From a virus (taxonomy: Duplodnaviria; Caudoviricetes): a DNA stretch of 63,202 nt. The DNA is taken from positions 1 through 63,202 of IMG/VR virus record IMGVR_UViG_3300030329_003706. One strand, 5' to 3'. The notes under the pieces were generated by a model. It was not told where the DNA came from. It did not search any database and saw only the letters and a program-made list of their open reading frames with translations. Shown one piece after another: positions 16,587 through 59,690 of this stretch. Within the stretch, counting starts at the first letter, position 1; each line of letters begins with the position of its first letter. The translations under genes and the position numbers were made by a program.

Positions 16587-18958
16587 TAGTTTCCTCCTTT
16601 AACTGATTGTTGTGTTCGTTCTCTTGCTATTTGAGCTCTCATATTAGCAATATCCTCTGTTGATTGTATTCGCTCTCTTGCTATGTCGGCTGTATCTTTA
16701 TTTTTCATAGCATCTTGCTGTAACTTTTGTTCATCTACTTGGGCATCTTGGTTAATTTGCTTCTCACGCAAGGCTACCTCTTGTTTCTTAATTTCTACAA
16801 GTGGGTCTTGGTCTGTTTGTGGTGGGTTTTGTTGTTGGAACTCCATTATTAACTGTGCTTGTATTTGTGCGAGCATTTGTGCATGAGCCTCGGGCGGTTG
16901 TTGCTGTGCCTGTGGGTCTTGTGCCATTTGTTGATCATGAACTACTTGTGCTTTCATACCGAGATGTTCGTAAATATGCTTTTCTAATGTCAACAACAAC
17001 GGTGGTTGCATCTGGGCAACCTTACTATTCATATAAGCCAAGTGTACAGCAATATGAGCATCGTGGTCTTGTTGAGGAAATGCCTGTATCTGCGTTTGTC
17101 CTTCTGCGGCTTGACTGGCTTTTTGGTTTTCTGTTGCAGGATCCAATGGCTGTGGTGGCTCTTTCGGGGTCAATATCTGCTCGACATTATTCACACCCAA
17201 TGCTTCATAAACTCGACGGTAAGCCTCGTGCATATTGTGCAATTCTGGAGCCGCAGTCGCCAATTTTAACTGTTCTTGTGCCAAAACCACTCTTTGTGAC
17301 ATACTAAAAATATTAGGGTCACTAACAGGTAATATATCAACACGGTTATCAAAATCTTGTGCCTTAATTTGATTATCCGCACCAACTTCATAAGGATAAG
17401 GGGTAGGATCCTCACCAAATAAAGAACTCAATAACCTTAATTCACTTTTCATACTCGCATGTAACCGTTTATGCACAGCACTAACTATCTTTGCTCCTCT
17501 TTCAAGTAAAGCAATGGTTGTACCTACAGGCATTTCTTGGTTTCCATCCCCAACACCCATATCTGTAGTACCAATAAACTTCTGAGCCGCACTCACCACA
17601 AACCCCATTAACTGAAATAACGTACCAGAAGGTTCTTTATAGGGCAAAGGCATCAAACTTGTGCGTAAATCACCTCCAGGAACATCAACATCTCTAAATT
17701 CTCCTGGAGATAAAGGGTTTTGGTCATCAGCAATACGCAAACCCCGAGCTTTAAATCCCGCAGGCATATTACTCAACGTTCCCGCATCGATTAATTGGCG
17801 TAAATTCGCTGTAGCTGTGCGTGAAAGATTAGAAAGTAGGTGTATTAACCCAAAACCATAAAATCCAAGTCCTGGAGTAAACTTATACTGCACAAAATGG
17901 GGTATTTTATCCTTATTTACATCATCTGGGCGGTAATTTCTGCGTATTGAAAGCACCTCATGGCTTGTTTCACTCACAGTAACTACATAAGGTAACTTAA
18001 TTTCAGTCAATTGACCGCTTTCATCGGTATCTGGGTACTCATCCAAGTCCAAATAACAATGGCACTCATATAAAATCACCTCATCTGAATCATTAGCAGG
18101 GCTAACTCCTTCAAGTTTTTCATACGCTTTCTTAATTTCATTGTTTGGCTCATCACTATCCTTAGAAATATCAATTTCTTTGTAAAAACCCTTTACCTGT
18201 AGCTTCCGAAGGTCATTTTGCGACATACGAATAATATGAGTCACACGGTCAGCAGTCTTTAAATCAACAGCAGTGTACGGTACAATCACATCTTCCGCAG
18301 GTACAAACTTACTAACAGGGCGATTTAATACATCATCTTTATAAATTTTCTTAAAAGTTGATCCCGCCAACCCCAAATAATACAACATCTGGTCAAACTC
18401 TGGCTCATACTCCTCCATCTGGTACATTATCTGGTAATTCATATAATCTTGAACACGCTTCGCCTGCTTTTCCGTTTCGATACTAGGCACTCCTACAATA
18501 TTAGCTCGCACAGGACCACCACTCGGCAACATCTCCTTATATGCTCCTGCCTGAAACTGCGTAACGGCTTCATTCAAAACAGGGTGGATTACACCTGTTG
18601 CTCCATCAAAAGGTTCAGTACGGGACTCATACTTCAAACCAAGCAAATCTAAACCCTTTGTATATGTCTCTACCCACTCCTCTCTACTATTCTTATCCTC
18701 TTCTACGTTTTCAATTACCATAGAAGCAATATCAGTAAGGGTGCTATCCTCTAAATTATCTACTAAGTTATCGAAAAAATCATCAGGTTCAGTACCCATA
18801 ACCTGCTCTTCACCAAAAATAACTTCCGCACCACCATCTTCCGTTTCTATAGCCTCTACTTCAACATCTAAAGGTTGTTCTGCCTCCATCTCCATAGGGG
18901 TAAGCATATCATCTGGGGCTTGCAAAAGTGATCTATCTACATTACTTGGTTTTGCCAT
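16586..18958 (-). CDS. Portal protein
   Basis: 790 aa directly after TerL; EAVTQFQA, PGLGFYGFGL and RQLIDAGTLSN motifs; long Gln-rich C-terminal coiled coil. Confidence 0.88.
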   Translation of the reverse strand: MAKPSNVDRSLLQAPDDMLTPMEMEAEQPLDVEVEAIETEDGGAEVIFGEEQVMGTEPDDFFDNLVDNLEDSTLTDIASMVIENVEEDKNSREEWVETYTKGLDLLGLKYESRTEPFDGATGVIHPVLNEAVTQFQAGAYKEMLPSGGPVRANIVGVPSIETEKQAKRVQDYMNYQIMYQMEEYEPEFDQMLYYLGLAGSTFKKIYKDDVLNRPVSKFVPAEDVIVPYTAVDLKTADRVTHIIRMSQNDLRKLQVKGFYKEIDISKDSDEPNNEIKKAYEKLEGVSPANDSDEVILYECHCYLDLDEYPDTDESGQLTEIKLPYVVTVSETSHEVLSIRRNYRPDDVNKDKIPHFVQYKFTPGLGFYGFGLIHLLSNLSRTATANLRQLIDAGTLSNMPAGFKARGLRIADDQNPLSPGEFRDVDVPGGDLRTSLMPLPYKEPSGTLFQLMGFVVSAAQKFIGTTDMGVGDGNQEMPVGTTIALLERGAKIVSAVHKRLHASMKSELRLLSSLFGEDPTPYPYEVGADNQIKAQDFDNRVDILPVSDPNIFSMSQRVVLAQEQLKLATAAPELHNMHEAYRRVYEALGVNNVEQILTPKEPPQPLDPATENQKASQAAEGQTQIQAFPQQDHDAHIAVHLAYMNSKVAQMQPPLLLTLEKHIYEHLGMKAQVVHDQQMAQDPQAQQQPPEAHAQMLAQIQAQLIMEFQQQNPPQTDQDPLVEIKKQEVALREKQINQDAQVDEQKLQQDAMKNKDTADIARERIQSTEDIANMRAQIARERTQQSVKGGN

Positions 18959-20418
18959 TAATAATATATCCTTTGTACTGGACCACGAGGCTCATCTTCA
19001 TAATCCTCAGGGTGTTGTATAAAACCGCCTTCTCTAAATCTTCGCAAAGCCTGTGTAACAGTATCAACGTAATCATCGTGTTCTCCTGCTGGAAAAGCCG
19101 CACATTCCTCAATTACCTCCTCAGCCCAACGAGTATCTGGACACCATACTAACCCACTTTCTAGCAACGGTGCAATAGAATTTACTCGACTAAATTTATC
19201 ATTTCCTCTACTTGGGCTGTAATTAGTCACTGGAATACCCATGTTTCTTAGCTCTTGGGTCAGCGGCATACCCGAAGCTTTTGCCTCGATTAATACACAT
19301 TCAGGATCCCAATACTTAAACTCCTCTAACGCTCGCCGTCGCAAATCAGGAAAATCCCATCGTCCACGCTTGGCATCAACTAGAATAATGTTTGGTGGTT
19401 TCCCTTCCTCTGGGTAAAAAACACCCCATGTGGTAATCGCACTAAAATCAGCATTAGTCTGCTTACTATACGCCGTATCATAACTCTGCATAACATACTC
19501 CAACGGTGGTAACTCATCCTTCCACGTCTGCCACCAATCACGCTTTAATATCGCCGCTCCCTCACTTGTAGGGTTCTGTTGCCATTGGGCTTCCCACTTA
19601 TTAATAGAAAGTGATCCCTTAACCGATAATAAATCCTCTTTTTTCCAAAATTCTCCCCACAACGGCTCCTCTGTATCAGGCATCAACGCAGGGAATTCAA
19701 CTATCTCCCACTTATCCGCTAATATATCTCTCGCTTGTTGCTTAACCAATTTACCTGTCAAATCGTTTTCTGCCCATCGGGTCATAATCATTACAATACT
19801 CCCTCCTGGTTGTAAACGCTGTCTAGGTCCACTAGTATACCATTCATACGCATGCTCCATAGCCGTCGGCGATAAAGCATCTTGCTCACTGTGGGGGTCA
19901 TCAATAATCAATAAATCCGCACCACGTCCAGTAACCGCACCTCCAACTCCAGCCGCGAAATATTCACCCCCCTTATCCGTCTCCCATCGTCCCGCCGCTT
20001 GGCTATCCGCTCGCAAAGAAACATTGTCGAATATAGCTCCGTATTCACTCGAATTCATCAAATTACGCACCTTACGTCCAAATCTAAATGCCAACTCAGC
20101 CGTATGCGTAGTCTGCATAATCTTTAACTTCGGGTTTCTACCCATCAACCACGCAGGTAGTAAATAACTTCCGAATTCAGATTTCGTGTGTCTCGGTGGC
20201 ATATTCACTATCAATCGCTTTAACTCACCTCGGGCTATACGGTTAAACTTCTCAGCCATTATCTTATGGTGGCGTCCATTTATAAACTCCACCCAAACAG
20301 CCTGTACAAAGCACATAAAATCCTCTCGGGCTTTTTCCGCTTGGTCTAAACTCTTAGCTCTATCCAATAAATGGGCAAACTTCTTAAGGCTTTCCTCAGG
20401 TATACGTTCTAAGTCCAT
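18958..20418 (-). CDS. terL: Terminase large subunit
   Basis: MPPRHTKS Walker A variant; GRGADLLIIDDP Walker B; nuclease motifs SYDTA, DFSA and HDDYVD. Confidence 0.95.
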   Translation of the reverse strand: MDLERIPEESLKKFAHLLDRAKSLDQAEKAREDFMCFVQAVWVEFINGRHHKIMAEKFNRIARGELKRLIVNMPPRHTKSEFGSYLLPAWLMGRNPKLKIMQTTHTAELAFRFGRKVRNLMNSSEYGAIFDNVSLRADSQAAGRWETDKGGEYFAAGVGGAVTGRGADLLIIDDPHSEQDALSPTAMEHAYEWYTSGPRQRLQPGGSIVMIMTRWAENDLTGKLVKQQARDILADKWEIVEFPALMPDTEEPLWGEFWKKEDLLSVKGSLSINKWEAQWQQNPTSEGAAILKRDWWQTWKDELPPLEYVMQSYDTAYSKQTNADFSAITTWGVFYPEEGKPPNIILVDAKRGRWDFPDLRRRALEEFKYWDPECVLIEAKASGMPLTQELRNMGIPVTNYSPSRGNDKFSRVNSIAPLLESGLVWCPDTRWAEEVIEECAAFPAGEHDDYVDTVTQALRRFREGGFIQHPEDYEDEPRGPVQRIYY

Positions 20419-20613
20419 ATTTCCTCTATATATCGAAAATTTTCCAAAGGCAATGAACCTATAATCAATATACAGTGTTCAGGGGGGTAGCAACTTTAAT
20501 AATTTTTCGATTACCCTTGAATCGGAAAAAACATGGTTTTACACGCAAAACCAAGGGAAGAATTCTCGCACAGGGGGGTCGCAAATTTGCAACCGTGCCG
20601 ATGGGTAAAATGG

Positions 20614-20643
20614 GCTAGGGGGTAACCTTAGTTACCCCCTAGC
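20614..20643 (-). terminator. 13-bp perfect hairpin terminator after 20651..21088
   Basis: GCTAGGGGGTAAC-CTTA-GTTACCCCCTAGC. Confidence 0.75.
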
Positions 20644-20650
20644 GTTAAAA

Positions 20651-21088
20651 TTAACTAGCTGTAGGCTGTACAACTAATTTAATGTAGCAAGTACCCCAAT
20701 AGCTACTGCTTGGGCTGTAGCCACCGTTTAAAAGTGCAAACAAGCAATTTGGGTTTTTGGCACTATGACCAAGCTTACTAGCGTTTGCCAAAACGACAGC
20801 CAAACTAGTGTTTGTTTTGTGGGCGTTTAAAATACTATTTTGTATTGTAGCCCTTACGCCTTGCCCACTACCACCGTAGCCAAACGGTGTAGGTTTAGCA
20901 CTACCAAGCTTTACGTTTGATAGTGGTACTATTTGCACATTGGCTAACTGCCCTTGAGCGTGTGTATTTACCCACTTGTAAAAGCTAGTGGCATTGTACG
21001 GCGTTTGACCACACCCTACGCCACCGTAAACGACAGCTTTGGTGCTAACAGCATTTTTACTGTTATTTTTTGGTTTAGTGTTTTGCAT
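20651..21088 (-). CDS. Early protein of unknown function, Asp/Glu-free paralogue of 21863..22324
   Basis: Own promoter, AAGGAG RBS and terminator. Shares PFGYGGS..GVR.TIQ, KLGHS.K.PNC and NGGYSPSS.YWGT.YIKLVVQ with the paralogue. Confidence 0.85.
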   Translation of the reverse strand: MQNTKPKNNSKNAVSTKAVVYGGVGCGQTPYNATSFYKWVNTHAQGQLANVQIVPLSNVKLGSAKPTPFGYGGSGQGVRATIQNSILNAHKTNTSLAVVLANASKLGHSAKNPNCLFALLNGGYSPSSSYWGTCYIKLVVQPTAS

Positions 21089-21129
21089 AATATACTCCTT
21101 TTTGGTTGTTATGCGTTTGCGTTAATATC

Positions 21130-21200
21130 AGAGTAAACGTTTTTTAAAAGCTTGTAAATAGTTTTTTTAACTTTTTTTAACTTTTTTTAATTTTTATTTT
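21130..21200 (-). promoter_or_regulatory. Sigma70-type promoter TTTACA-N17-TACTCT with phased A-tracts (UP-like)
   Basis: -35 at 21153-21158, -10 at 21130-21135, and about four A-tracts at 10-bp period at 21161-21200. Confidence 0.7.
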
Positions 21201-21378
21201 TGATTGATGCGATTGAGTTGAGTTGATTTGACTCATTATATAAAGAGATAGACAGACACAGATGCACACAGATGAACACCTATCCCCTTGCGATGGGAAG
21301 GGAATGGGAGCTATCGCCCCCACACCATATATAGAAAGCCTAAGAATATACCGATACAAAGTAAGAATGCGATTACCA

Positions 21379-21600
21379 TTAGCAATCCTCCCAACCTGGA
21401 GGTCCACTGTACGCTGTTTCCCTTTTTTTAACCTCGCATGGGTCACATAACTCAGTATGCCCACCGTATCCTGTCATGCCACATTTACTAGGGACATGCT
21501 TTGCTTCCTCCCACTCCAATGTTAATGCAGATTGTCCTGCAGGTTTTAGTAAAGTGATAGGTTTACCACAACCTCTAAAATTTCCCATATACCAATTCAT
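21379..21600 (-). CDS. Small Cys-containing early protein
   Basis: AAGGAG RBS and its own promoter at 21642-21682. Confidence 0.65.
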   Translation of the reverse strand: MNWYMGNFRGCGKPITLLKPAGQSALTLEWEEAKHVPSKCGMTGYGGHTELCDPCEVKKRETAYSGPPGWEDC

Positions 21601-21641
21601 TTTGTGCTCCTTTCAATATACACAGTTTGCGTTAATAATTA

Positions 21642-21682
21642 ACATTAACGCACCACGTATCACTGGACTATTCTTATTTACT
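21642..21682 (-). promoter_or_regulatory. Phage promoter, variant (TAGTCC-N17-TAATGT plus AAATAAGA box)
   Basis: Same spacing and upstream box as the TTATCA promoter family. Confidence 0.55.
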
Positions 21683-21700
21683 CAGCAGAAGAGAATCCTT

Positions 21701-21773
21701 GAAGATCTTTCTTGATCTTTCTAGATCTTTCTAGATCTTTATTGATCATATATATGTTTATACATATGATCAA
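21701..21773. repeat. Five GATC-containing decamers plus an inverted repeat
   Basis: GATC at 21704, 21714, 21724, 21734, 21744 and 21768; TTGATCATAT...ATATGATCAA inverted repeat at 21742-21773. Confidence 0.9.
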
Positions 21774-21818
21774 GTCAAATCAAATCTTGTCCTCTTTCAT
21801 CCTCCGGAGATGGGAGTC

Positions 21819-21851
21819 AAAAAAATAGGGGACGCCACCAGACGTCCCCTA
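21819..21851 (-). terminator. Intrinsic terminator after 21863..22324
   Basis: TAGGGGACG...CGTCCCCTA stem plus T7 on the - strand. Confidence 0.8.
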
Positions 21852-21862
21852 AATATTTGAGG

Positions 21863-22324
21863 TTAACCTTGAACCACCAATTTGATGTAAGGAGTTCCCC
21901 AATATTTACTTGATGGGGAGTAACCACCGTTCATCGCGGCGAGCACACAGTTTGGACGTTTTTTACTGTGTCCAAGTTTCGCGGCTTTCGCGAGTACAGT
22001 TTTAAGGGACGTGTCACCATCAACACCAAAAATTATCCAGTCTTGTATGGTTTGACGAACGCCACCTTTTGACCCACCGTATCCAAAAGGCAGTGGCTCA
22101 CTGCCAGTCTTGTCAACATTAGGTAAGCATTCAATTTTGACATTCGCCTCATTGCCTCCTGCTTGCTCAGCAATAAACTTAGTGATGTCGGTGTAATCAA
22201 GAGTCTTGCCGTCCTTAACAACTAACTCTACAGACTTTACGACTGCCTTAGGAGTCGCTGCCTTTGATTTTGGTTTAATGTTATTCATGAGTATCTCCTT
22301 TCTACGAGAATTATTTTTTAACAT
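21863..22324 (-). CDS. Early protein of unknown function, paralogue of 20651..21088 (true start probably MNNIKPK at 22288)
   Basis: AGAAAGGAG RBS before the second Met; own promoter and terminator. Confidence 0.85.
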   Translation of the reverse strand: MLKNNSRRKEILMNNIKPKSKAATPKAVVKSVELVVKDGKTLDYTDITKFIAEQAGGNEANVKIECLPNVDKTGSEPLPFGYGGSKGGVRQTIQDWIIFGVDGDTSLKTVLAKAAKLGHSKKRPNCVLAAMNGGYSPSSKYWGTPYIKLVVQG

Positions 22325-22330
22325 TAATTA

Positions 22331-22380
22331 AGAGTACCATAATAAACGTCACTTGATAAGTCTTTTTTTATCTTATTTTA
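22331..22380 (-). promoter_or_regulatory. Phage promoter TTATCA-N17-TACTCT
   Basis: Member of the repeated family, with upstream AAATAAGA-like boxes. Confidence 0.7.
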
Positions 22381-22484
22381 TCTGTCAAATCAAATCAAAT
22401 CCAGTCATTCTTCTTCTTTCATCATCTATCAGATAACATTCTAAGAGGACGATTGACGAAGATTGATGAACCGTTTTCCCTCCT

Positions 22485-22949
22485 CTATGATGGGAGCTGA
22501 GAAGATTTGATTTTCCCCTCCTTGGTGATGGGAGAAGATGATGTTAGAATATGATTGATGAGACCGTTCCAATCGTAAGGAGATCGGGAACTCCAGTCAG
22601 GGGTTAATGGTCCGTCAATCATGGACTCTCCGCTTATTTCCATCGCTCTACTACCACAAAATATATTTATAGTGGCTGACGAAGGATGCTCAACCAAGTT
22701 CATGACGATTCCAGAATATCCGATATATCTTATCTGCCAAGCGATTTGGTGTGGACTCAGCTTTATATTTTTTAGCGACTTTAACCTATGGACTTTCAAT
22801 TCTAGCCAAAAACTCAGTCCATCTTTAACACCATGCACATCAGGGACACCAGGACTAGACCAGGACTCTAGGCGTGTCCAAAACACACCCAGATCCTTAG
22901 TTCCCTCCCTTAATTTATGCCACAGTTTAGACTCAGGCTTTACGGTCAT
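22485..22949 (-). CDS. PD-(D/E)XK nuclease (VRR-NUC / Holliday junction resolvase-like)
   Basis: ESKLW...RLES...PGVPD...FWLELK...LSPHQIAW. Confidence 0.8.
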   Translation of the reverse strand: MTVKPESKLWHKLREGTKDLGVFWTRLESWSSPGVPDVHGVKDGLSFWLELKVHRLKSLKNIKLSPHQIAWQIRYIGYSGIVMNLVEHPSSATINIFCGSRAMEISGESMIDGPLTPDWSSRSPYDWNGLINHILTSSSPITKEGKIKSSQLPS

Positions 22950-24210: not shown

Positions 24211-24250
24211 ACAATAACAGTTAAGCTGTCTTGTGATAACTCTTTTATTT
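24211..24250 (-). promoter_or_regulatory. Phage promoter TTATCA-N17-TATTGT
   Basis: Family member. Confidence 0.6.
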
Positions 24251-24796
24251 TCCTTTTTTGTCTGGCTCTACGACTTCAGCTTCAATAACCAAATTGTCAT
24301 CACTGATCACACCCAGAGCAGGATACTCTTCTTGAAGTCTTTTGATTTCTTTCATAACCTCGTCTTTACTCATCTGATCAATATTTCCATGGAGTATTTC
24401 TTTACGATCAATGTAGAGTCCAGCCGCTTGACCTCTGGATTTTTCAGCCGCGACTGCCGCAGGATAATTGTTGTTCTGCATTGCTAGATCACGTATTTCT
24501 GCAAGTTTTTTTACATGTCCCTCAAAAGTCACCTCATACTTACGGGACAACTCTTGCTTTAACTCCCGAATTCTTTCAACAACATGGGGGTATCGTTGTC
24601 CGTTTAATAGTTGGGAGGCGATTGCATGGGCAGATTTCTCAGAGTATCCTGCTTTGAGAGCCGCTTCTGTCTGGGAAACATCTTCACAAACATAGATTCT
24701 ACAAAACTCCTCCTGTTTGGGTGTGATGCTTTTTTCTGTCCGTGGATTTCCCACGACAGACAGTGTATGTTTGTGAGTTGCTTTTGCGATTGCCAT
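24245..24796 (-). CDS. terS: Terminase small subunit
   Basis: ITPKQEEFCRIY...QTEAALKAGYSEKSAHAIASQLL helix-turn-helix typical of TerS. Confidence 0.85.
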   Translation of the reverse strand: MAIAKATHKHTLSVVGNPRTEKSITPKQEEFCRIYVCEDVSQTEAALKAGYSEKSAHAIASQLLNGQRYPHVVERIRELKQELSRKYEVTFEGHVKKLAEIRDLAMQNNNYPAAVAAEKSRGQAAGLYIDRKEILHGNIDQMSKDEVMKEIKRLQEEYPALGVISDDNLVIEAEVVEPDKKGK

Positions 24797-34512: not shown

Positions 34513-34882
34513 GAGATATTCTACTAGGGTGATCTAAACCATCTGTATCATAAGACTCATGGTTATTATCCTTTCTAAGAATTTCTGCTTCTACAAGCAT
34601 AAGATACCTGCGTAAATCTTTGATATCATCAATAACACCCTCTGGTCGAGTATCTAACTGAGCTGTTTTGAATATATCATAGTTATGCTCCGTGACTTGC
34701 TTTTCAAGCCTGTCCCATTTACGAGCAAGCATCATAAACGCCCCTACACCTCCACGCTGTTTCCAGCTGTCACCGTAGCTTTGTTCAGATTTATGCAACC
34801 CTTCTACATCTTGCTTTGCTACTTTTTCTACAAGTGCTATCATCGTGCTGTATTGTGTCATTTTTTCCTCCTTTTTAACCAT
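34460..34882 (-). CDS. Nucleotide-modification-associated all-alpha protein (Nmad1/DUF1599-like)
   Basis: SYGDSWKQRG...ARKWDRLE...DDIKDLRRY; adjacent to the TS homologue. Confidence 0.6.
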   Translation of the reverse strand: MVKKEEKMTQYSTMIALVEKVAKQDVEGLHKSEQSYGDSWKQRGGVGAFMMLARKWDRLEKQVTEHNYDIFKTAQLDTRPEGVIDDIKDLRRYLMLVEAEILRKDNNHESYDTDGLDHPSRISHEEEDMFREDRCEWKTR

Positions 34883-35835
34883 TCAACACACGCCTTACGC
34901 CATGCTCTGTCTTCTATTTTAAAAGCATACTTAAAAGCCGAACTCATATTCTTTTGTTTCCACATATGCCACGATTTTCTCATCATAGCCGCCGTCTTGC
35001 CCAAGAATTCATTTTTATAATTGAATAAATCTTCATCTATAAACCATTTTTGCAATTCTTCATCAAAACAACTTGGGTCTGAAACAATAGGGGGAGAACT
35101 GTAACTCAACCCATCATCCGCAATGGTGAGGTAAGGTTCTCTGTCTATTTGCATACCGTCTAACTTTTTTAAAGGCTCTACATAGGCATGAAGATTATTA
35201 CTGAATTGGTAATAGTCGCCCACCTTACAGCCTGTCATAGATGCCATATACTCTTGCAGTATAGACATATGCACAGCATTAGCTCCATAAGCTCCCCATA
35301 TCATATCATTACTACGATTAACTACTGTCATGTGAAGTTCACTTTTTCGTTTCCAAAAGAAGATTTGTGTATTACAGGGGTGATCTTTACCACCATTACT
35401 TCTATGGAGGTCTTGTATGGGATCCCACATATTTATAACCACTCTCCTATCGTTGGGATAAGTGGTTAATCTAAATATGGCAATTTCTAACTGATCTTTA
35501 CCAAACCATGTTCTCCACCTGTAACCGTAAGCTCCATGTGAAGTTATTCCATCATCACTGTATTCCACCATTCGCTTATTGTAGTTTTGTATAAACTCTA
35601 CATCGTTTCTACCTGCTAACATCCAAAGGGATTCCATTAAATGGAAATAGGGGTTAGCGTCCCTTTCTGGATAAAACAATACTCTTTCTCTACTGTGTGT
35701 ATAGGTCGTTACAACTGGACCAGGAAACTCCAATGCTAACCCATTACGAGTTTCCACTTCTATACCTGAAGATTCTAAAGCATCTTTGCCTATGGCTAAA
35801 GCTTCACTAACATTACGAACCCATATTTCTTGCAT
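34858..35835 (-). CDS. Thymidylate synthase-family enzyme, probably dUMP hydroxymethylase
   Basis: ETRNG, HGAYGYRWR, catalytic KDHPCN, NRSND..WGAYGAN (Asn, dUMP-type) and NLHAY; lies in the modification cluster. Confidence 0.85.
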   Translation of the reverse strand: MQEIWVRNVSEALAIGKDALESSGIEVETRNGLALEFPGPVVTTYTHSRERVLFYPERDANPYFHLMESLWMLAGRNDVEFIQNYNKRMVEYSDDGITSHGAYGYRWRTWFGKDQLEIAIFRLTTYPNDRRVVINMWDPIQDLHRSNGGKDHPCNTQIFFWKRKSELHMTVVNRSNDMIWGAYGANAVHMSILQEYMASMTGCKVGDYYQFSNNLHAYVEPLKKLDGMQIDREPYLTIADDGLSYSSPPIVSDPSCFDEELQKWFIDEDLFNYKNEFLGKTAAMMRKSWHMWKQKNMSSAFKYAFKIEDRAWRKACVEWLKRRKK

Positions 35836-36508
35836 CTGCTACATCCTTTCTTATCCAACAACTGTTAGGTTCAATGAGTTTAGGCAATGAACCTTTTTTA
35901 TTTGCAACTCTTTCAGTCCACTTTAATAAGTATCCCTTAGAACGTAAAAGCTCCCACTTTCGCTGTTTTATTTCTTCCTGCTCCTCTCTATACTCTTTAG
36001 TGGTATTGCCCTTAATAGCTACATAATCTTCTGTGATTATTTCTTCTGGAAACACTTGCCAACTGTAAGCAGATAATATGTTTTTATCATTGCCTTCTGT
36101 ATCTATCTTTAATATGTCCACATGGGTAATATTGTGTTCCTTGAATAAAGTGTCTAAAGTTTTAAGGGGAACAGTTTGATACTCATCTGTTAAATGCTGT
36201 GAAATATATTCGGTGTCCTTTAATAAAGAAGAACGCATACATTTTTCTTTTTGTGCAGGACTACGTCTGTTCATAAATCCATATTTCCCCATATATAATT
36301 TACCTACACCATCTTCATTGCTTATGGCACAATGTTCATACTTGAAATCACACCCCGATAAGCTTTTAAATATTTCCTCTTTTAAATGAATATTGGGTTC
36401 TACCATCAAACCAAACCATTTTTCTCTTTTACGATGCAATAACTTATTAGCTAGAGATAATGTTCTGGCATTAAAGCACCCAATGTCTACAATTACCTTT
36501 TTGTTCAT
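35813..36508 (-). CDS. FkbM-family SAM-dependent methyltransferase
   Basis: VDIGCF, VEPN, CAIS, TLDTL and DILKIDTEG motifs. Start placed at the AGGAGG-preceded ATG 36508 (track start 36553). Confidence 0.85.
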   Translation of the reverse strand: MNKKVIVDIGCFNARTLSLANKLLHRKREKWFGLMVEPNIHLKEEIFKSLSGCDFKYEHCAISNEDGVGKLYMGKYGFMNRRSPAQKEKCMRSSLLKDTEYISQHLTDEYQTVPLKTLDTLFKEHNITHVDILKIDTEGNDKNILSAYSWQVFPEEIITEDYVAIKGNTTKEYREEQEEIKQRKWELLRSKGYLLKWTERVANKKGSLPKLIEPNSCWIRKDVADARNMGS

Positions 36509-36582
36509 ATAACGCCTCCTCGACGTAGTTAGTGGTTTTGCTACCCTGTACACCTAAAAAGGCGTAGAGGGGGTCGAGTGGC

Positions 36583-37677
36583 TTAAATACGCCCCTCAAA
36601 AAAGCTTAAATACTGTTTTCCTATAACTTTTGGGCTGTGTAGAGCTAATGCCTTGCTACCGTTCTCTCTATAAAAAGATAAAGGCGTTGAAGTAGAAGAG
36701 TACTGTGTTCCCATCACTCCTGCGTTAGATGCTACTCCCATACTCTTTCTGGGTATAGAATCGTTGGGGGAATCTATACTGTTTATAAGTTCAGCTAATT
36801 CTTCTGCTGTGCTTACGACTAAACAATTGATATCTGGCTTCATATCGTCTGGCTCATCCAGTAACCACTTAGAATGAATAATAGGAATACATCCTGCGTT
36901 CCATGCTTCAAGCCAAGTGTACTGTGTTCCCCCTCCATCGCCTACTATTTGGGTCATATCTACATTAAAGATATATTTTTTCATAAGGTTAAACGCATGA
37001 TCATTTTCTCTTGGGTAGTGAGCCTTAGACTGTACCCATTCAGGATACTTAGGCACTATCTTAAAGCGAGTGTATATTCTGTTTTCAAATCCCCTTATGT
37101 TTATTTTCTTGTTATCTGGTAATAAACGGTTAGCATCAAGCAAAACTTCTGTGTGCTTATCAAAATCTATTCTAGAAGTACTGATAGCAATTCCTCCACG
37201 AGTGCTTATATTGTTTGGGGTTTGAGAAGTAAAGGGGGAGTAGGGGTGTCTTATGAAAGTAGAACCCTTTAATGTCCTTGCCCCAATTTGTCTTATACTG
37301 ATACACCTATTGGGATCTAAGTTTTCAGGCAAGTTTTTCAACTCAGTAGGATCATGCACCACTATGAAAGCACCGTTGTCATATAGCTGTTGTGTTTGTT
37401 CCTTGAACTGTTTGGCTCCTGCGACAACAAGCTTAATCTCTGATCGCATAGAATTACTTGAAAAGTTACCATTGTATTTGTTAAAAACATCATCCAAAGA
37501 AATGTTTTGGTACTTTTTCCCATACCCAAAATCTCTTTGAAACTTTTCTGATTTTGGACGAACCTTGTAAAGATAAGGGGTAATCCCCACTTCTTTTAGT
37601 GCGTCCATAAGGTGACTGGTATAAGTTACCCAACCTCCATAGGGATTGGGACTTAAATAAAATAAATTTGCTCTCAT
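36583..37677 (-). CDS. GT-B fold glycosyltransferase
   Basis: N-terminal YGGWVTY, HDPTE, SRIDFDKH and GGGTQYTWLEAWNAGCIPI (GT4-like E.x.G motif). Confidence 0.75.
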   Translation of the reverse strand: MRANLFYLSPNPYGGWVTYTSHLMDALKEVGITPYLYKVRPKSEKFQRDFGYGKKYQNISLDDVFNKYNGNFSSNSMRSEIKLVVAGAKQFKEQTQQLYDNGAFIVVHDPTELKNLPENLDPNRCISIRQIGARTLKGSTFIRHPYSPFTSQTPNNISTRGGIAISTSRIDFDKHTEVLLDANRLLPDNKKINIRGFENRIYTRFKIVPKYPEWVQSKAHYPRENDHAFNLMKKYIFNVDMTQIVGDGGGTQYTWLEAWNAGCIPIIHSKWLLDEPDDMKPDINCLVVSTAEELAELINSIDSPNDSIPRKSMGVASNAGVMGTQYSSTSTPLSFYRENGSKALALHSPKVIGKQYLSFFEGRI

Positions 37678-38579
37678 TCTATTTTTCCTTTTATTGAATC
37701 TGTAAATGTTTGTTTGTACAAGCTACGAGGCTTACCCTCACCTAGCCTAACTCTTTCGTACTTGTCCCACTCACATAGGCTATGTTCAATAGTACGCATA
37801 TCTATGTCTGATTCAGAACAAATTAATTGACCATACTCTCGCTTGTATTGAAGCAAGAACCACATTTCTTCATTAGCTTGTTTTTGGCTTATCGTTTTGT
37901 TGAGGGGGCGTTCCCCAATCCTGTTAAGACCGCGAATTGCTCCAGGTCCTGCGTTTGCCCAAGTAAAACGGTCTTTTGGGCATGGTAACACAGATGTGTA
38001 GTTGAGGTCGGAAACGACCTCGTATGACATAAAACCTCCCCCTCCCCACCCTTTATAGGAAGCCATCGCATTGTGGAGACTTTGCAAGGAATTTGTTTGG
38101 GACGCCACAATAGCAAGTTTTTCCTTGTCTCGCCAGATTGGGGATAAGAAGTGGTCAACTACTACCTCCGATTTCCTAAGTTTAAGACCCTGATTCGTAA
38201 TTATATACGCTCCAGTAAATGTCCGTAAACCCTTATCTAATCTTCTTTCTATGATTTCTTTGGTGCGAGTAGGATCCCACTCTGTTACCCACCCATGTTC
38301 CTCAGCAAACTCTATAGTACCCACCATTCTAAACAAACAGCAATTAAATATTATTTCGCCATGATCACGATTATGGTTTAAATCAGTCCAGTTCCTACGC
38401 ATCCAAACGGTTACTCTATCGTTTTCCCTAAATGGATTAGTGAACTTATATTTTTGTAATATAGGGTCAGTAGTCCAAGGAGGAGGTTTACCCTCTAGCC
38501 TACGTTGATATATACGATGCCGTTCTGTTATCCAATCATATAACAAACAGGCATTTAATCTAGCTTCTTTTTCAAACAT
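37674..38579 (-). CDS. aGPT-Pplase1 / 5-hmdU DNA kinase-like protein
   Basis: ERHRIY..R..G.PPPWT.DPILQKYKFTN.FRE.DRVT, FTGAY, GFMSYEVVSD, GPGAIRGL and IEHSLCEWDKY motifs. Confidence 0.85.
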   Translation of the reverse strand: MFEKEARLNACLLYDWITERHRIYQRRLEGKPPPWTTDPILQKYKFTNPFRENDRVTVWMRRNWTDLNHNRDHGEIIFNCCLFRMVGTIEFAEEHGWVTEWDPTRTKEIIERRLDKGLRTFTGAYIITNQGLKLRKSEVVVDHFLSPIWRDKEKLAIVASQTNSLQSLHNAMASYKGWGGGGFMSYEVVSDLNYTSVLPCPKDRFTWANAGPGAIRGLNRIGERPLNKTISQKQANEEMWFLLQYKREYGQLICSESDIDMRTIEHSLCEWDKYERVRLGEGKPRSLYKQTFTDSIKGKIE

Positions 38580-58292: not shown

Positions 58293-59690
58293 TTATCCTG
58301 GTCTTAGTTCAACGGCTAAATAAGTAAAGTTTCCTGAGTCTACTGATACAGATGCTCCGTTGGGTAGTATAGTGGCTACATCATCATATGTACCGCTATC
58401 ACCATCGCTCATGTCTAAAGTTTTTCCTGTACCGTTAATGGTAACAGTGAAACTACGATTTCCTGAGCTAGTGGAACGCCCAGAGATAAATACAGGGTAT
58501 CCTGTACTGTTCGTGTAAGAGCTATCAGTTCCTGTGCTATGAAGAGTAGCACTGTTTGTAATCCAACTATTTTTCATTGCTACCGTAGAAGCACTTGTTT
58601 CTTCTAGACCATTGCCTACTGCACTGTGTTTATCGTCACCCACAGAATCCACATATGCTTTAATAGATTGTTGCGTTGCTAATTTAGTAGCAGAATTAGA
58701 AGACATATTATCTTCATCTTTAATTCCTGTTACGGTGGCTCCATCACCTGCAATAGTTAAACTGGTGCTTGCAGTAATTCCCCCACCATCGGCTATAGTT
58801 ATAGCATTATCACCATCTGTGTAGCCTATGTTTGTTGTTTGCAATTCACCTGCTAAGTTTAAATTACCACTTGTATCTATTGTTACTTTGGTGGCATATG
58901 AACCAGACGTTTTACTTTGCCATGTGATTGTGCCACCATCTGCAAAGTTAATTTTCCAATTATCAGCATTATCATCTCCTTGATCAGCAATCATAGTGAG
59001 AGCCAAAGGCTGACCTTCTACATTAGCTTTAATTTCTAAGCTATTTTCACCATCTTCATCATAACCAACCACTACATCTTGGTCGTTGCCAAACTTTATG
59101 TACTTATCATCGGCTATGTAAACATCACCAAATTCTGCCGAACTAGAACCAATATCTGCTCCACCAGAAGCATCAGGTAAAATAGAAGTATTGGCTGTGA
59201 TGGTAGTACCTACAATAGTAGAAGGGGAACTAGAACCAATAGCTACTCCATCAACAGCCACAGATGAAAACAATGCTGATAAATCTGTTACAGCACCATT
59301 AGTATCACCTTCTCCATCTGCAAATATAATAGCTCCTTTTCCATTAGCTATTGTTACAGTTGACCCTGAACTTCCTTGCTTAAAAATAACCGATTGACCA
59401 CTAGCGTTTTTTACAAAATACAGCTTTTCTGCGTTGGAAGGGTCTATTGTTATTGTATTTGTACCAGAAGGTGATCCTCCTAAAACTAAAACCTTAAACA
59501 TTCCGTTTGATAAACTACCATCACTTGTAGTCAATGTGTGTGTAGTGCCTGATAAGGTTATCGCACCGACACCATTTATTAGTCTATCTATTATATCGAA
59601 ATTATTATTTGTAGTAGTACCCCAAGTTCCTGCCTGTTCACCAAGACCTATCTTTTCTATACCACCACTATCTGTATATTCTGATCCCAT
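58293..59690 (-). CDS. Tail fibre protein
   Basis: GEQAGTWGTTTN.N anchor motif; ATQQSIKAYVD. Confidence 0.75.
   Translation of the reverse strand: MGSEYTDSGGIEKIGLGEQAGTWGTTTNNNFDIIDRLINGVGAITLSGTTHTLTTSDGSLSNGMFKVLVLGGSPSGTNTITIDPSNAEKLYFVKNASGQSVIFKQGSSGSTVTIANGKGAIIFADGEGDTNGAVTDLSALFSSVAVDGVAIGSSSPSTIVGTTITANTSILPDASGGADIGSSSAEFGDVYIADDKYIKFGNDQDVVVGYDEDGENSLEIKANVEGQPLALTMIADQGDDNADNWKINFADGGTITWQSKTSGSYATKVTIDTSGNLNLAGELQTTNIGYTDGDNAITIADGGGITASTSLTIAGDGATVTGIKDEDNMSSNSATKLATQQSIKAYVDSVGDDKHSAVGNGLEETSASTVAMKNSWITNSATLHSTGTDSSYTNSTGYPVFISGRSTSSGNRSFTVTINGTGKTLDMSDGDSGTYDDVATILPNGASVSVDSGNFTYLAVELRPG

What the first reader, a model, noticed from the sequence alone, without database searches (positions are those of the whole stretch)
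20651..22324. Two paralogues of an unknown early protein, one recoded and one normal
Seen: 20651..21088 and 21863..22324 share PFGYGGS..GVR.TIQ, TSL..VLA.A.KLGHS.K.PNC and NGGYSPSS.YWGT.YIKLVVQ. Acidic residues of the second become neutral in the first (IQD>IQN, GDTSL>TNTSL). Each has its own promoter and terminator. The TC-free copy has a near-canonical TTTACA -35 with A-tracts; the normal copy uses the TTATCA family. Both share the -10 TACTCT. Inference: a two-stage switch in which copy 1 is made by unaided host RNAP and enables transcription of modified DNA or of the TTATCA promoters, and copy 2 amplifies this.
Basis: partly seen in the sequence, partly recalled or inferred. Interest (0 to 1): 0.8.

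Follow-up and report, generated by a model that had tools for sequence, protein, structure and literature searches.

The report
Gene unit purged of TC/GA steps
A marine phage that chemically decorates its thymines keeps one small gene, a twin of a normal neighbour, written without the two-letter DNA step TC/GA, most likely so that this one gene stays ordinary, readable DNA.

Summary
Copy B (20651..21088, -) and copy A (21863..22288, -) are 52% identical paralogues with no known family or clear fold. B lies in a 517-nt run without TC on the + strand, so its message strand has no GA. B has no Asp or Glu and uses AGY for 14 of 15 Ser codons.

The tandem pair recurs in 128 of 163 related marine phage pieces. 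A is never purged. B is purged of GA nearly everywhere, and of TC as well in about half of its versions. The purge runs from about the start of the transcript to the end hairpin.

All near-complete relatives carry a thymidine-hypermodification cassette. A palindrome-avoidance test, checked with a positive and a negative control, suggests that TC-containing sites are the protected ones.

Best reading (0.5): B is a transcription unit free of modification sites, and it encodes a small basic, probably DNA-binding protein. An RNA-level rival (escape from a GA/UC-cutting RNase) is not excluded.

Earlier notes of this scan report the same kind of island in other genomes. Two literature searches found no description of it.

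The parts
20651..21088 (-). Copy B: 145-aa acid-free paralogue (K11 R1, no D/E). Coding strand GA 0, TC 6.
20580..21096 (.). Run of 517 nt with no TC on the + strand, i.e. no GA on the message strand. It spans the CDS, the 3' region and the end hairpin. The first GA upstream is in the Shine-Dalgarno GGAG.
20615..20645 (-). End hairpin of B (12-bp stem, 4-nt loop), not followed by a T-run.
   Evidence: not flagged by the scan
21130..21197 (-). B promoter, read by eye: phased A-tracts 21162..21197, TTTACA 21153..21158, 17-nt spacer, TACTCT 21130..21135. The A-tract array is unique in the window.
21863..22288 (-). Copy A: normal paralogue of 141 aa. The ORF is open back to 22324, but the RBS and the homologues favour 22288. 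For the 153-aa ORF: GA 29, TC 22.
21826..21851 (-). Terminator of A (11-bp stem, T7 tail).
22331..22400 (-). A promoter: TTATCA 22354..22359, 17-nt spacer, TACTCT 22331..22336, with AAATAAGA-type boxes upstream. It is one of nine similar units in the window.
21379..21600 (-). Cys-rich 73-aa ORF between A and B, with its own RBS and a promoter of the TTATCA-like family. It has no homologue in the five complete relatives.
21202..21290 (.). TC/GA-saturated spacer just upstream of the B promoter: 12 GA in 60 nt on the + strand, the second densest GA window in the genome.
22370..22582 (.). TC- and GA-saturated stretch upstream of A. It holds the densest TC window (14 in 60 nt) and the densest GA window (13 in 60 nt) of the whole window. 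It partly overlaps the 3' end of the nuclease-like gene 22485..22949.
34858..38579 (-). Thymidine-hypermodification cassette elsewhere in the window.

Best explanation
Copy B, from its promoter-proximal leader through the coding frame to the end hairpin (about 20580..21135), is a transcription unit kept free of the sites where this phage hypermodifies its own thymines. I infer that the modified context is T followed by C.

Because the template strand has no TC, host RNA polymerase would meet no bulky modified thymine while reading B on the infecting, fully modified genome. In many relatives neither strand has any TC.

B encodes an acid-free version of a small, strongly basic, probably DNA-binding protein. 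Its normal-composition twin A lies 0.8 kb upstream behind a promoter of the phage's own AAATAAGA-box class.

Shown: the purge, its extent, its recurrence, the paralogy and the modification cassette.
Inferred: the TC context, the effect on transcription and the protein's role.
For: 1. The purge is real and unique in the window. The TC-free run is 517 nt, against at most 190 nt in 200 resamples. B is the only gene with GA below 4.2%.

2. It acts on nucleotides, not only on amino acids. In A genes about 11 GA per gene lie outside Asp/Glu codons. In B genes with TC of 5 or less the figure is 0.4. The 3' untranslated part is purged too: the first GA/TC after the stop lies at a median of 80 nt in 23 purged B units, against 3 nt in 72 A units. 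In L072 an extra ORF inside the same unit is also purged.

3. It recurs. 128 of 163 related pieces hold the tandem pair. Every leaf of the A clade has GA of 15 or more and TC of 13 or more. Of 124 unique CDS sorted as B, 26 have GA 0/TC 0 and 23 have GA 1-5/TC 0.

4. Both strands are hit, the template strand most consistently. One DNA-level cause explains this. In T7 RNAP assays bulky or charged base modifications inhibit mainly in the template strand, and bulky groups are reported to block bacterial RNAP at promoters (passages of PMC11550810).

5. All 9 near-complete genomes examined carry a thymidylate-synthase homologue and an aGPT-Pplase-like gene. Eight of these nine carry a glycosyltransferase that Pfam recognises.

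6. Thymidine hypermodification is known to depend on dinucleotide context: TG/TC in M6, ViI and phiW-14 (PMC6449724 section 10), and TG in SH-Ab 15599 (passages of PMC13458397).

7. An independent genome-wide test. In 16 family genomes, 6-mer palindromes that contain TC/GA are spared from avoidance (median O/E 0.88; 1 of 16 below 0.5). TG-containing ones (0.45), GC-only ones (0.03) and the rest (0.65) are avoided; MWU p 0.0009. In SH-Ab 15599 the same method spares TG (p 0.0007). In two pelagiphages without the cassette it shows nothing (p 0.29).

8. The TC/GA-densest windows of the window and of all five complete relatives flank A and B.
Against: - The modification itself, its chemistry and its TC context are not shown for any of these phages.
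- Some B versions are not purged of TC (TC 16-33, GA 7-18), yet their genomes carry the same cassette and show the same palindrome signature.
- Very close pairs (A 95-98.5% identical) differ in purge state.
- A pan-genome comparison of 9 purged and 7 unpurged genomes found no gene that tracks the purge.
- The two TC-containing 4-mer palindromes are themselves avoided: GATC 0.73 and TCGA 0.54.
- SH-Ab 15599, where the TG context is known, has no TG-free island.
- All other genes, early ones included, are rich in TC and must still be transcribed.
- B's own -10 hexamer, TACTCT, contains TC, and some relatives have GA/TC in the promoter spacer.
- The 16 genomes are related, so the palindrome p-values overstate independence. 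For the window alone p is 0.058.
- The extent of the purge, from transcript start to end hairpin, fits an RNA-level cause equally well.
Confidence: 0.5

Rival explanations
1. RNA-level escape. The B message is written without GA, and in many lineages without UC, so that it survives an endoribonuclease with that dinucleotide preference. The enzyme could be a host defence or a phage shut-off enzyme. B would then still be translated when other messages are cut.
For: - The purge follows the transcript. It begins near the -10/start and ends with the 3' structured region.
- GA/TC are tolerated in some promoter spacers.
- GA avoidance on the message strand is near-universal in the B clade, while TC avoidance is lineage-specific, as two separate RNase specificities would give.
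- Purge state changes between very close phages, as a host-borne agent would predict.
- From memory, no call: RNases with dinucleotide preferences exist (Cas13b orthologues with GA or UC; T4 RegB at GGAG; ACA-less messages resist MazF).
Against: - It needs two specificities that happen to be reverse complements of each other. One DNA-level cause explains both.
- It does not explain why TC-containing palindromes are spared genome-wide.
- It does not explain why the TC/GA-densest DNA flanks the locus.
- Pfam or PHROGs named no RNase among the 43 other window proteins scanned.
- The GGAG of the ribosome-binding site is kept in the window.
Confidence: 0.15
2. Self-insulation from a reader protein. 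A and B bind TC-marked (modified) DNA and coat or silence it, like an abundant phage histone-like factor. B's unit has no sites, so it stays uncoated and keeps supplying the protein.
For: - The protein is small, with net charge about +12, and needs no acidic residue.
- Weak winged-helix-like structural matches (Z 3-5.1).
- One protein, P0190, joins the family domain to a C-terminal HNH_2 nuclease. From memory, modified-DNA reader domains occupy that position in type IV restriction enzymes.
- TC/GA-saturated arrays lie next to both promoters in the window and all five complete relatives.
- There are two gene copies. B also has a strong-looking promoter and, in most relatives, a conserved 5' hairpin.
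Against: - No DNA binding is shown.
- The fold matches are below the level that is informative.
- The HNH fusion is a single sequence on a single contig.
- If coating silenced genes, the late genes would be silenced too.
Confidence: 0.15
3. A cis-acting or damage-avoidance role unrelated to expression. The island could be kept as ordinary DNA because the terminase must recognise it (a pac-type site next to the large-terminase gene). Or it could avoid a TC-specific single-strand nuclease or deaminase.
For: - The island always lies immediately upstream of the large-terminase gene.
- From memory, no call: TC-specific enzymes acting on single-stranded DNA exist (T4 endonuclease IV; APOBEC-like deaminases).
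Against: - The borders of the purge match a transcription unit, not a site.
- The ribosome-binding site is itself rewritten (AAAGGGG instead of GGAG) in fully purged relatives.
- The message-strand GA purge comes first. This is the reverse of what attack on the exposed non-template strand would give.
- The B protein stays conserved, with 15 invariant positions shared with A.
Confidence: 0.07

Closest known systems
Dinucleotide-context thymidine hypermodification from 5-hmdU (phages M6, ViI, phiW-14, SH-Ab 15599)
   Same: The window has a thymidylate-synthase homologue and a protein 33-37% identical to the aGPT-Pplase-type proteins of these phages, SH-Ab 15599 included. In those phages the modified thymines sit in TG and/or TC contexts (PMC6449724 section 10; passages of PMC13458397).
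   Different: The inferred context here is TC alone: TG-containing palindromes are strongly avoided. Pfam recognised no P-loop kinase. A glycosyltransferase accompanies the cassette. No modification-free gene is described for the cultured phages, and SH-Ab 15599 has no TG-free island.
Restriction-site (palindrome) avoidance in phage genomes
   Same: Selection removes short words from DNA. These genomes nearly lack GGCC, CCGG and GCGC.
   Different: Here a two-letter, non-palindromic step is removed from one transcription unit only, at the cost of every Asp and Glu. The likely agent is the phage's own chemistry, not a host enzyme.
Motif-free messages that resist a sequence-specific RNase (ACA-less mRNAs and MazF; recalled, no call)
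   Same: A whole message is written without a short word, so that it escapes an activity that hits all other messages.
   Different: Here the reverse complement is purged as well, and a DNA-level signature exists. No RNase is identified.
SPO1 TF1, an abundant phage protein that prefers hmU-containing DNA (recalled, no call)
   Same: A small basic phage protein in a phage with modified thymine. It is a possible functional analogue.
   Different: There is no sequence relation: Pfam finds nothing in A or B at E up to 1. TF1's gene is not known to be recoded.
T4 MotA/AsiA activation of middle promoters (recalled, no call)
   Same: A family of phage promoters has a phage-specific box next to or in place of the -35. 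One factor gene sits behind a host-type promoter.
   Different: There is no homology. It is not shown that A or B binds the boxes.

Membership tests
Thymidine hypermodification systems derived from 5-hmdU (genome level) | Thymidylate-synthase-family dUMP hydroxymethylase | tested here: met
   PF00303, E 1.4e-21, at 34858..35835. Homologues 62-69% identical are present in G001-G005. Substrate specificity (dUMP or dCMP) is not testable here.
Thymidine hypermodification systems derived from 5-hmdU (genome level) | aGPT-Pplase / HMUDK helical-domain protein | tested here: met
   PF18723, E 1.1e-51, at 37674..38579. tblastn matches 427 phage records, some annotated as alpha-glutamyl/putrescinyl thymine pyrophosphorylase. 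Present in 5 of 5 complete relatives.
Thymidine hypermodification systems derived from 5-hmdU (genome level) | 5-hmdU DNA kinase (P-loop) that activates the base | tested here: inconclusive
Pfam recognised no kinase in the window's cassette. The relatives have an unassigned protein of about 200 aa beside the Pplase-like gene.
Thymidine hypermodification systems derived from 5-hmdU (genome level) | Modified thymine present in virion DNA, in a defined dinucleotide context | not testable with these tools
   Indirect only: TC-containing palindromes are spared, and the B unit is TC/GA-free.
Winged-helix DNA-binding proteins (A and B) | Three-helix bundle plus beta wing, matched with a convincing structural score | tested here: inconclusive
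   AF2 model: pLDDT 89, pTM 0.80. Foldseek on PDB and BFVD: nothing at E 0.001 or better. VIA-align best Z 5.1; many Fur/MecI/RRE-type rows at Z 3-4 over residues 50-141.
HU/TF1 family (A and B) | Match to the bacterial DNA-binding protein profile | tested here: not met
   No Pfam family in A at E up to 1. In B only a sub-threshold asparaginase hit.
Small terminase subunit (A and B) | Match to a terminase small-subunit profile | tested here: not met
   A and B have no Pfam or PHROG match. A separate gene, 24245..24796, carries Terminase_2.

The most novel reading that the evidence does not exclude
A and B are readers of the phage's own TC-directed thymine hypermodification, and B is the bootstrap of the infection. 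On the incoming, fully modified chromosome, the TC-free unit behind a host-type promoter is the only one that unaided host RNA polymerase reads efficiently. Its acid-free product then licenses the AAATAAGA-box/TTATCA promoters on modified DNA, including the promoter of its better-built twin A. This would be a new class of phage gene control, in which covalent DNA chemistry and a purged 'clean' gene together set the temporal programme.
Probability: 0.2. Interest if true: 0.9.

Novelty: categorically new. Interest (0 to 1): 0.8.

Why it matters
If the reading holds, phage genomes carry a readable 'negative footprint' of their own DNA chemistry. A gene stripped of one dinucleotide would reveal both that the DNA is modified and in which sequence context. 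That is information which today needs mass spectrometry on cultured phages.

The reading would also show that hypermodification has a cost for gene expression, large enough that selection rewrites a whole protein without Asp and Glu.

It gives a testable entry to a widespread family of small marine phage proteins with no known function. There are 189 homologues in one search and 100 clusters at 50% identity; 46 of these 100 cluster representatives have at most two acidic residues.

The palindrome-sparing test could be applied to uncultured phages in general. Here it was checked on a phage with a known TG context.

Tried and rejected
Family and fold
- Pfam and PHROGs on A and B: nothing.
- ESM Atlas: only unnamed viral clusters.
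- Foldseek on PDB and BFVD: nothing at E 0.001 or better. VIA-align: weak rows only.
- tblastn of A and of B against 50,697 phage records: no match, for B even at E 1.
- Search for longer, fused forms: none (weak evidence by the tool's own note).
- The HNH fusion P0190 is a singleton. In representative genomes only its HNH part has relatives, and their N-terminal parts have no Pfam family.

A gene that tracks the purge
- All-against-all clustering of ORFs from 9 purged and 7 unpurged genomes gave no convincing candidate. The unpurged genomes fall into only two lineages.
- Presence of the cassette does not separate the two states.

Generality
- SH-Ab 15599 has no TG/CA-free island.
- Two distant acid-free members gave no viral loci.

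Expression
- No RNA holder is listed among the 24 public runs, and only assembled contigs are served. I did not lay reads.

Other steps
- The promoter scan flagged neither promoter.
- A pattern for the double AAATAAGA box with 3-nt spacing found only chance-level matches, because the real spacing is 2.
- RNAalifold on 80 mixed 5' leaders gave no consensus. The hairpin is seen by eye only.
- My first estimate, that the purge runs 20-50 nt beyond the end hairpin, did not hold. The whole 3' region folds, and the purge ends about where the structure ends.
- The first 6-mer palindrome summary returned NaN and was redone.
- Chance or foreign composition is rejected: the same purge occurs in many lineages with different G+C.
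- A purely protein-level loss of acidic residues is rejected: silent and non-coding positions are purged too.
- Supplementary files of the papers were not opened. Tables on resistant sites in PMC6449724 and PMC13458397 may refine the TC/TG contexts.
- No complex prediction was sent, because I do not claim that A and B bind each other.
Full report
**What is there.** The window is a phage genome of 63,202 bases with nearly all genes on the - strand. The two ORFs of the finding lie between a small-terminase gene (24245..24796), a nuclease-like gene (22485..22949) and the large-terminase gene (18958..20418). They are paralogues: 75 of 144 residues identical, E 6e-43. I call the upstream copy A and the downstream copy B. 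A most likely starts at 22288. That start has a GAAAGGAG ribosome-binding site, and the homologues are 139-141 aa long. A Cys-rich 73-aa ORF with its own signals lies between A and B.

**The recoding.**
- On the + strand there is no TC from 20580 to 21096 (517 nt), although TC is 7.2% of all dinucleotides. The second longest TC-free run (105 nt) lies next to it.
- In 200 Markov resamples the longest run was 190 nt. The analytic chance is about 1e-12.
- On its coding strand B has GA 0 and TC 6. A has GA 29 and TC 22.
- B has no Asp or Glu, uses AGY for 14 of its 15 Ser codons, and has no GGA, AGA or CGA codon.
- Every other gene of the window has at least 4.2% GA.

One correction applies: only the template strand is fully TC-free.

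**The protein.** A and B have no Pfam or PHROG family. They have no relative in 50,697 phage records. One search found 189 unnamed homologues, mostly from marine metagenomes. A profile search of 1.84 billion representatives found 100 clusters. An AlphaFold model built on a 48-sequence alignment is confident (pLDDT 89, pTM 0.80). Foldseek finds nothing in PDB or BFVD. VIA-align gives at best Z 5.1, with many winged-helix-type rows at Z 3-4. That is a hint, not a membership. The protein is strongly basic, and B needs no acidic residue, which fits nucleic-acid binding better than metal-dependent catalysis. One 420-aa protein joins the family domain to an HNH_2 nuclease, but it is a single sequence. 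Among the 100 cluster representatives the Asp+Glu content is bimodal: 26 have none and 46 have at most two.

**Recurrence.** I fetched 82 viral and 80 metagenome loci.
- 128 of 163 sources, the window included, hold two family genes in tandem and 35 hold one. Most single-copy sources are cut by a contig end. Two of them (L189, L195) have 2.5 kb or more upstream without a second copy.
- The arrangement nuclease-like gene, A, B, large terminase is the same in relatives.
- A tree of 168 unique proteins splits into an A clade and a B clade, so the duplication is old.
- Every A leaf has GA of 15 or more and TC of 13 or more.
- A motif rule sorted 124 unique CDS as B, and about 8 of these really belong to the A clade. 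Among the 124: 26 have GA 0/TC 0, 23 have GA 1-5/TC 0, 9 have GA 0 with TC 1-23, 27 have GA 6-12/TC >12, and 20 have both >12.

**Shape of the purge.**
- In A genes GA occurs on average 11.9 times in Asp/Glu codons and 10.9 times elsewhere (codon positions 2-3 and codon boundaries).
- In B genes with TC of 5 or less these figures are 1.9 and 0.4.
- In B genes that keep TC (TC >12 and GA >5) they are 8.3 and 4.9.
- GA avoidance on the message strand is therefore near-universal in the B clade. TC avoidance is confined to about half of the versions.
- Upstream, the purge starts near the -10 or the transcript start. It sometimes starts tens of bases above the -35, and sometimes GA/TC are left in the spacer.
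- In fully purged relatives even the ribosome-binding site is rewritten, as AAAGGGG.
- Downstream, the first GA/TC comes a median of 80 nt after the stop in 23 purged units, against 3 nt in 72 A units. This is about where the folded 3' region ends.
- In L072 a second ORF inside the unit is purged as well.

The unit of selection is thus the transcription unit.

**Link to DNA modification.** The window carries a thymidylate-synthase homologue, an FkbM methyltransferase, a 364-aa protein and an aGPT-Pplase/HMUDK_hel-like protein. The last one matches 427 phage records, among them M6-like, ViI-like and SH-Ab 15599. Five complete relatives have the synthase homologue and the Pplase-like gene, plus a GT-B glycosyltransferase. 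G008 has the window's 364-aa type instead. In cultured phages thymidine hypermodification depends on the next base: TG/TC in M6, ViI and phiW-14 (PMC6449724, section 10 read) and TG in SH-Ab 15599 (PMC13458397, passages). Bulky major-groove groups are reported to block bacterial RNA polymerase. In T7 assays they inhibit mainly in the template strand (PMC11550810, passages).

**An independent test of the TC context.** If T in TC is protected, restriction-type palindromes that contain TC need not be avoided. I computed observed/expected counts for 6-mer palindromes with a maximal-order Markov model, pooled over 16 family genomes (749 kb).

| Palindrome class | n | median O/E | n below 0.5 |
|---|---|---|---|
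| contains TC/GA | 16 | 0.88 | 1 |
| contains TG/CA (no TC/GA) | 14 | 0.45 | 8 |
| G/C only | 8 | 0.03 | 6 |
| the rest | 26 | 0.65 | 7 |

- Mann-Whitney, TC class above all others: p 0.0009. Against T-containing palindromes only: p 0.005.
- The signal holds in genomes with purged B (p 0.003) and with unpurged B (p 0.002). For the window alone p is 0.058.
- Positive control: in SH-Ab 15599 the TG class is the spared one (p 0.0007).
- Negative control: two pelagiphages with related terminases but without the cassette show no difference (p 0.29).
- Against: the 4-mers GATC (0.73) and TCGA (0.54) are avoided. The genomes are also related to each other.

**Surroundings.** In the window and in all five complete relatives, the densest TC and GA windows of the whole genome flank A and B. 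A sits behind TTATCA-17-TACTCT with AAATAAGA-type boxes, like eight other units of the window. B sits behind phased A-tracts plus TTTACA-17-TACTCT, and the A-tract array is unique in the window. Pfam or PHROGs recognised no phage RNA polymerase among the proteins scanned, so host polymerase is presumably used.

**What speaks against a simple story.**
- Purge state is patchy in the B tree.
- Pairs whose A proteins are 95-98.5% identical have B proteins only 80-91% identical, with different purge states. B therefore evolves or is exchanged faster than its surroundings.
- No gene tracks the purge among 9 purged and 7 unpurged genomes.
- Unpurged genomes share the cassette (the G001 and G004 glycosyltransferases are 74% identical).
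- SH-Ab 15599 has no TG-free island.

**Verdict.** I put 0.5 on this reading: the B unit is kept free of the phage's TC-directed thymine hypermodification so that it is read unhindered on modified DNA.

The rivals are escape of the message from a GA/UC-cutting RNase (0.15), insulation from a DNA-coating reader protein (0.15), and a cis or damage-avoidance role (0.07).

Earlier notes of this scan describe GA/TC-free, acid-free cassettes in other phage genomes that carry thymine-modification genes. They agree with my reading but are not independent proof. Two literature searches listed no paper that describes such an island.

Noticed in passing
L020:3330-3400, L009, L021, L034, L045 and others (upstream of copy B); alignment: Most B leaders carry a hairpin just upstream of the ribosome-binding site. 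Its stem changes in a compensatory way between lineages (GTAGCC/GGCTAC, GTAAGC/GCTTAC, TGTGCC/GGCACA, GTTCC/GGGAAC), often around an AATAAN loop. The window's own leader does not show it clearly.
   Followed up: partly
window:1-63202 and G001-G008: The palindromes GGCC, CCGG and GCGC are almost absent from the window (O/E 0.00-0.02) and from G002. GTGCAC occurs 0 times against 111 expected over 16 genomes. This is very strong avoidance of sites that a thymine modification at TC could not protect.
   Followed up: yes
window:21701-21773: Five GATC sites lie at 10-bp spacing, plus an inverted repeat, between A's terminator and the next promoter. Pairs of GATC 10 bp apart also lie upstream of the B promoter in L043, L051 and L071.
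   Followed up: partly
window:21642-40043 (nine sites listed): A promoter family has two AAATAAGA-type boxes abutting a TTATCA -35-like hexamer, a 17-nt spacer and TAnnnT. It looks like an activator-dependent phage promoter class.
   Followed up: partly
L072:4284-4500: An extra ORF of about 70 codons, without Asp or Glu, lies inside the GA/TC-free unit upstream of copy B. It is purged like B.
   Followed up: no
G005 (L095-L098): 29-460 and 58614-59042: This record holds two nearly identical B copies and duplicated neighbours at its two ends. This is probably an assembly overlap of population variants rather than a true repeat.
   Followed up: no
window:18958-20418: The large-terminase gene is poor in TC on its coding strand (24 TC in 1461 nt, 1.6%). 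It has TC-free coding-strand stretches of 255 nt (over its 5' end) and 224 nt. G004 has a 325-nt stretch at the 5' end of the same gene.
   Followed up: no
P0190 (420 aa; metagenome protein): A single protein joins the A/B family domain (residues 56-193) to a C-terminal HNH_2 endonuclease. The HNH part has relatives of 34-53% identity in many bacterial genomes. It may be a host nuclease that borrowed the phage domain.
   Followed up: partly
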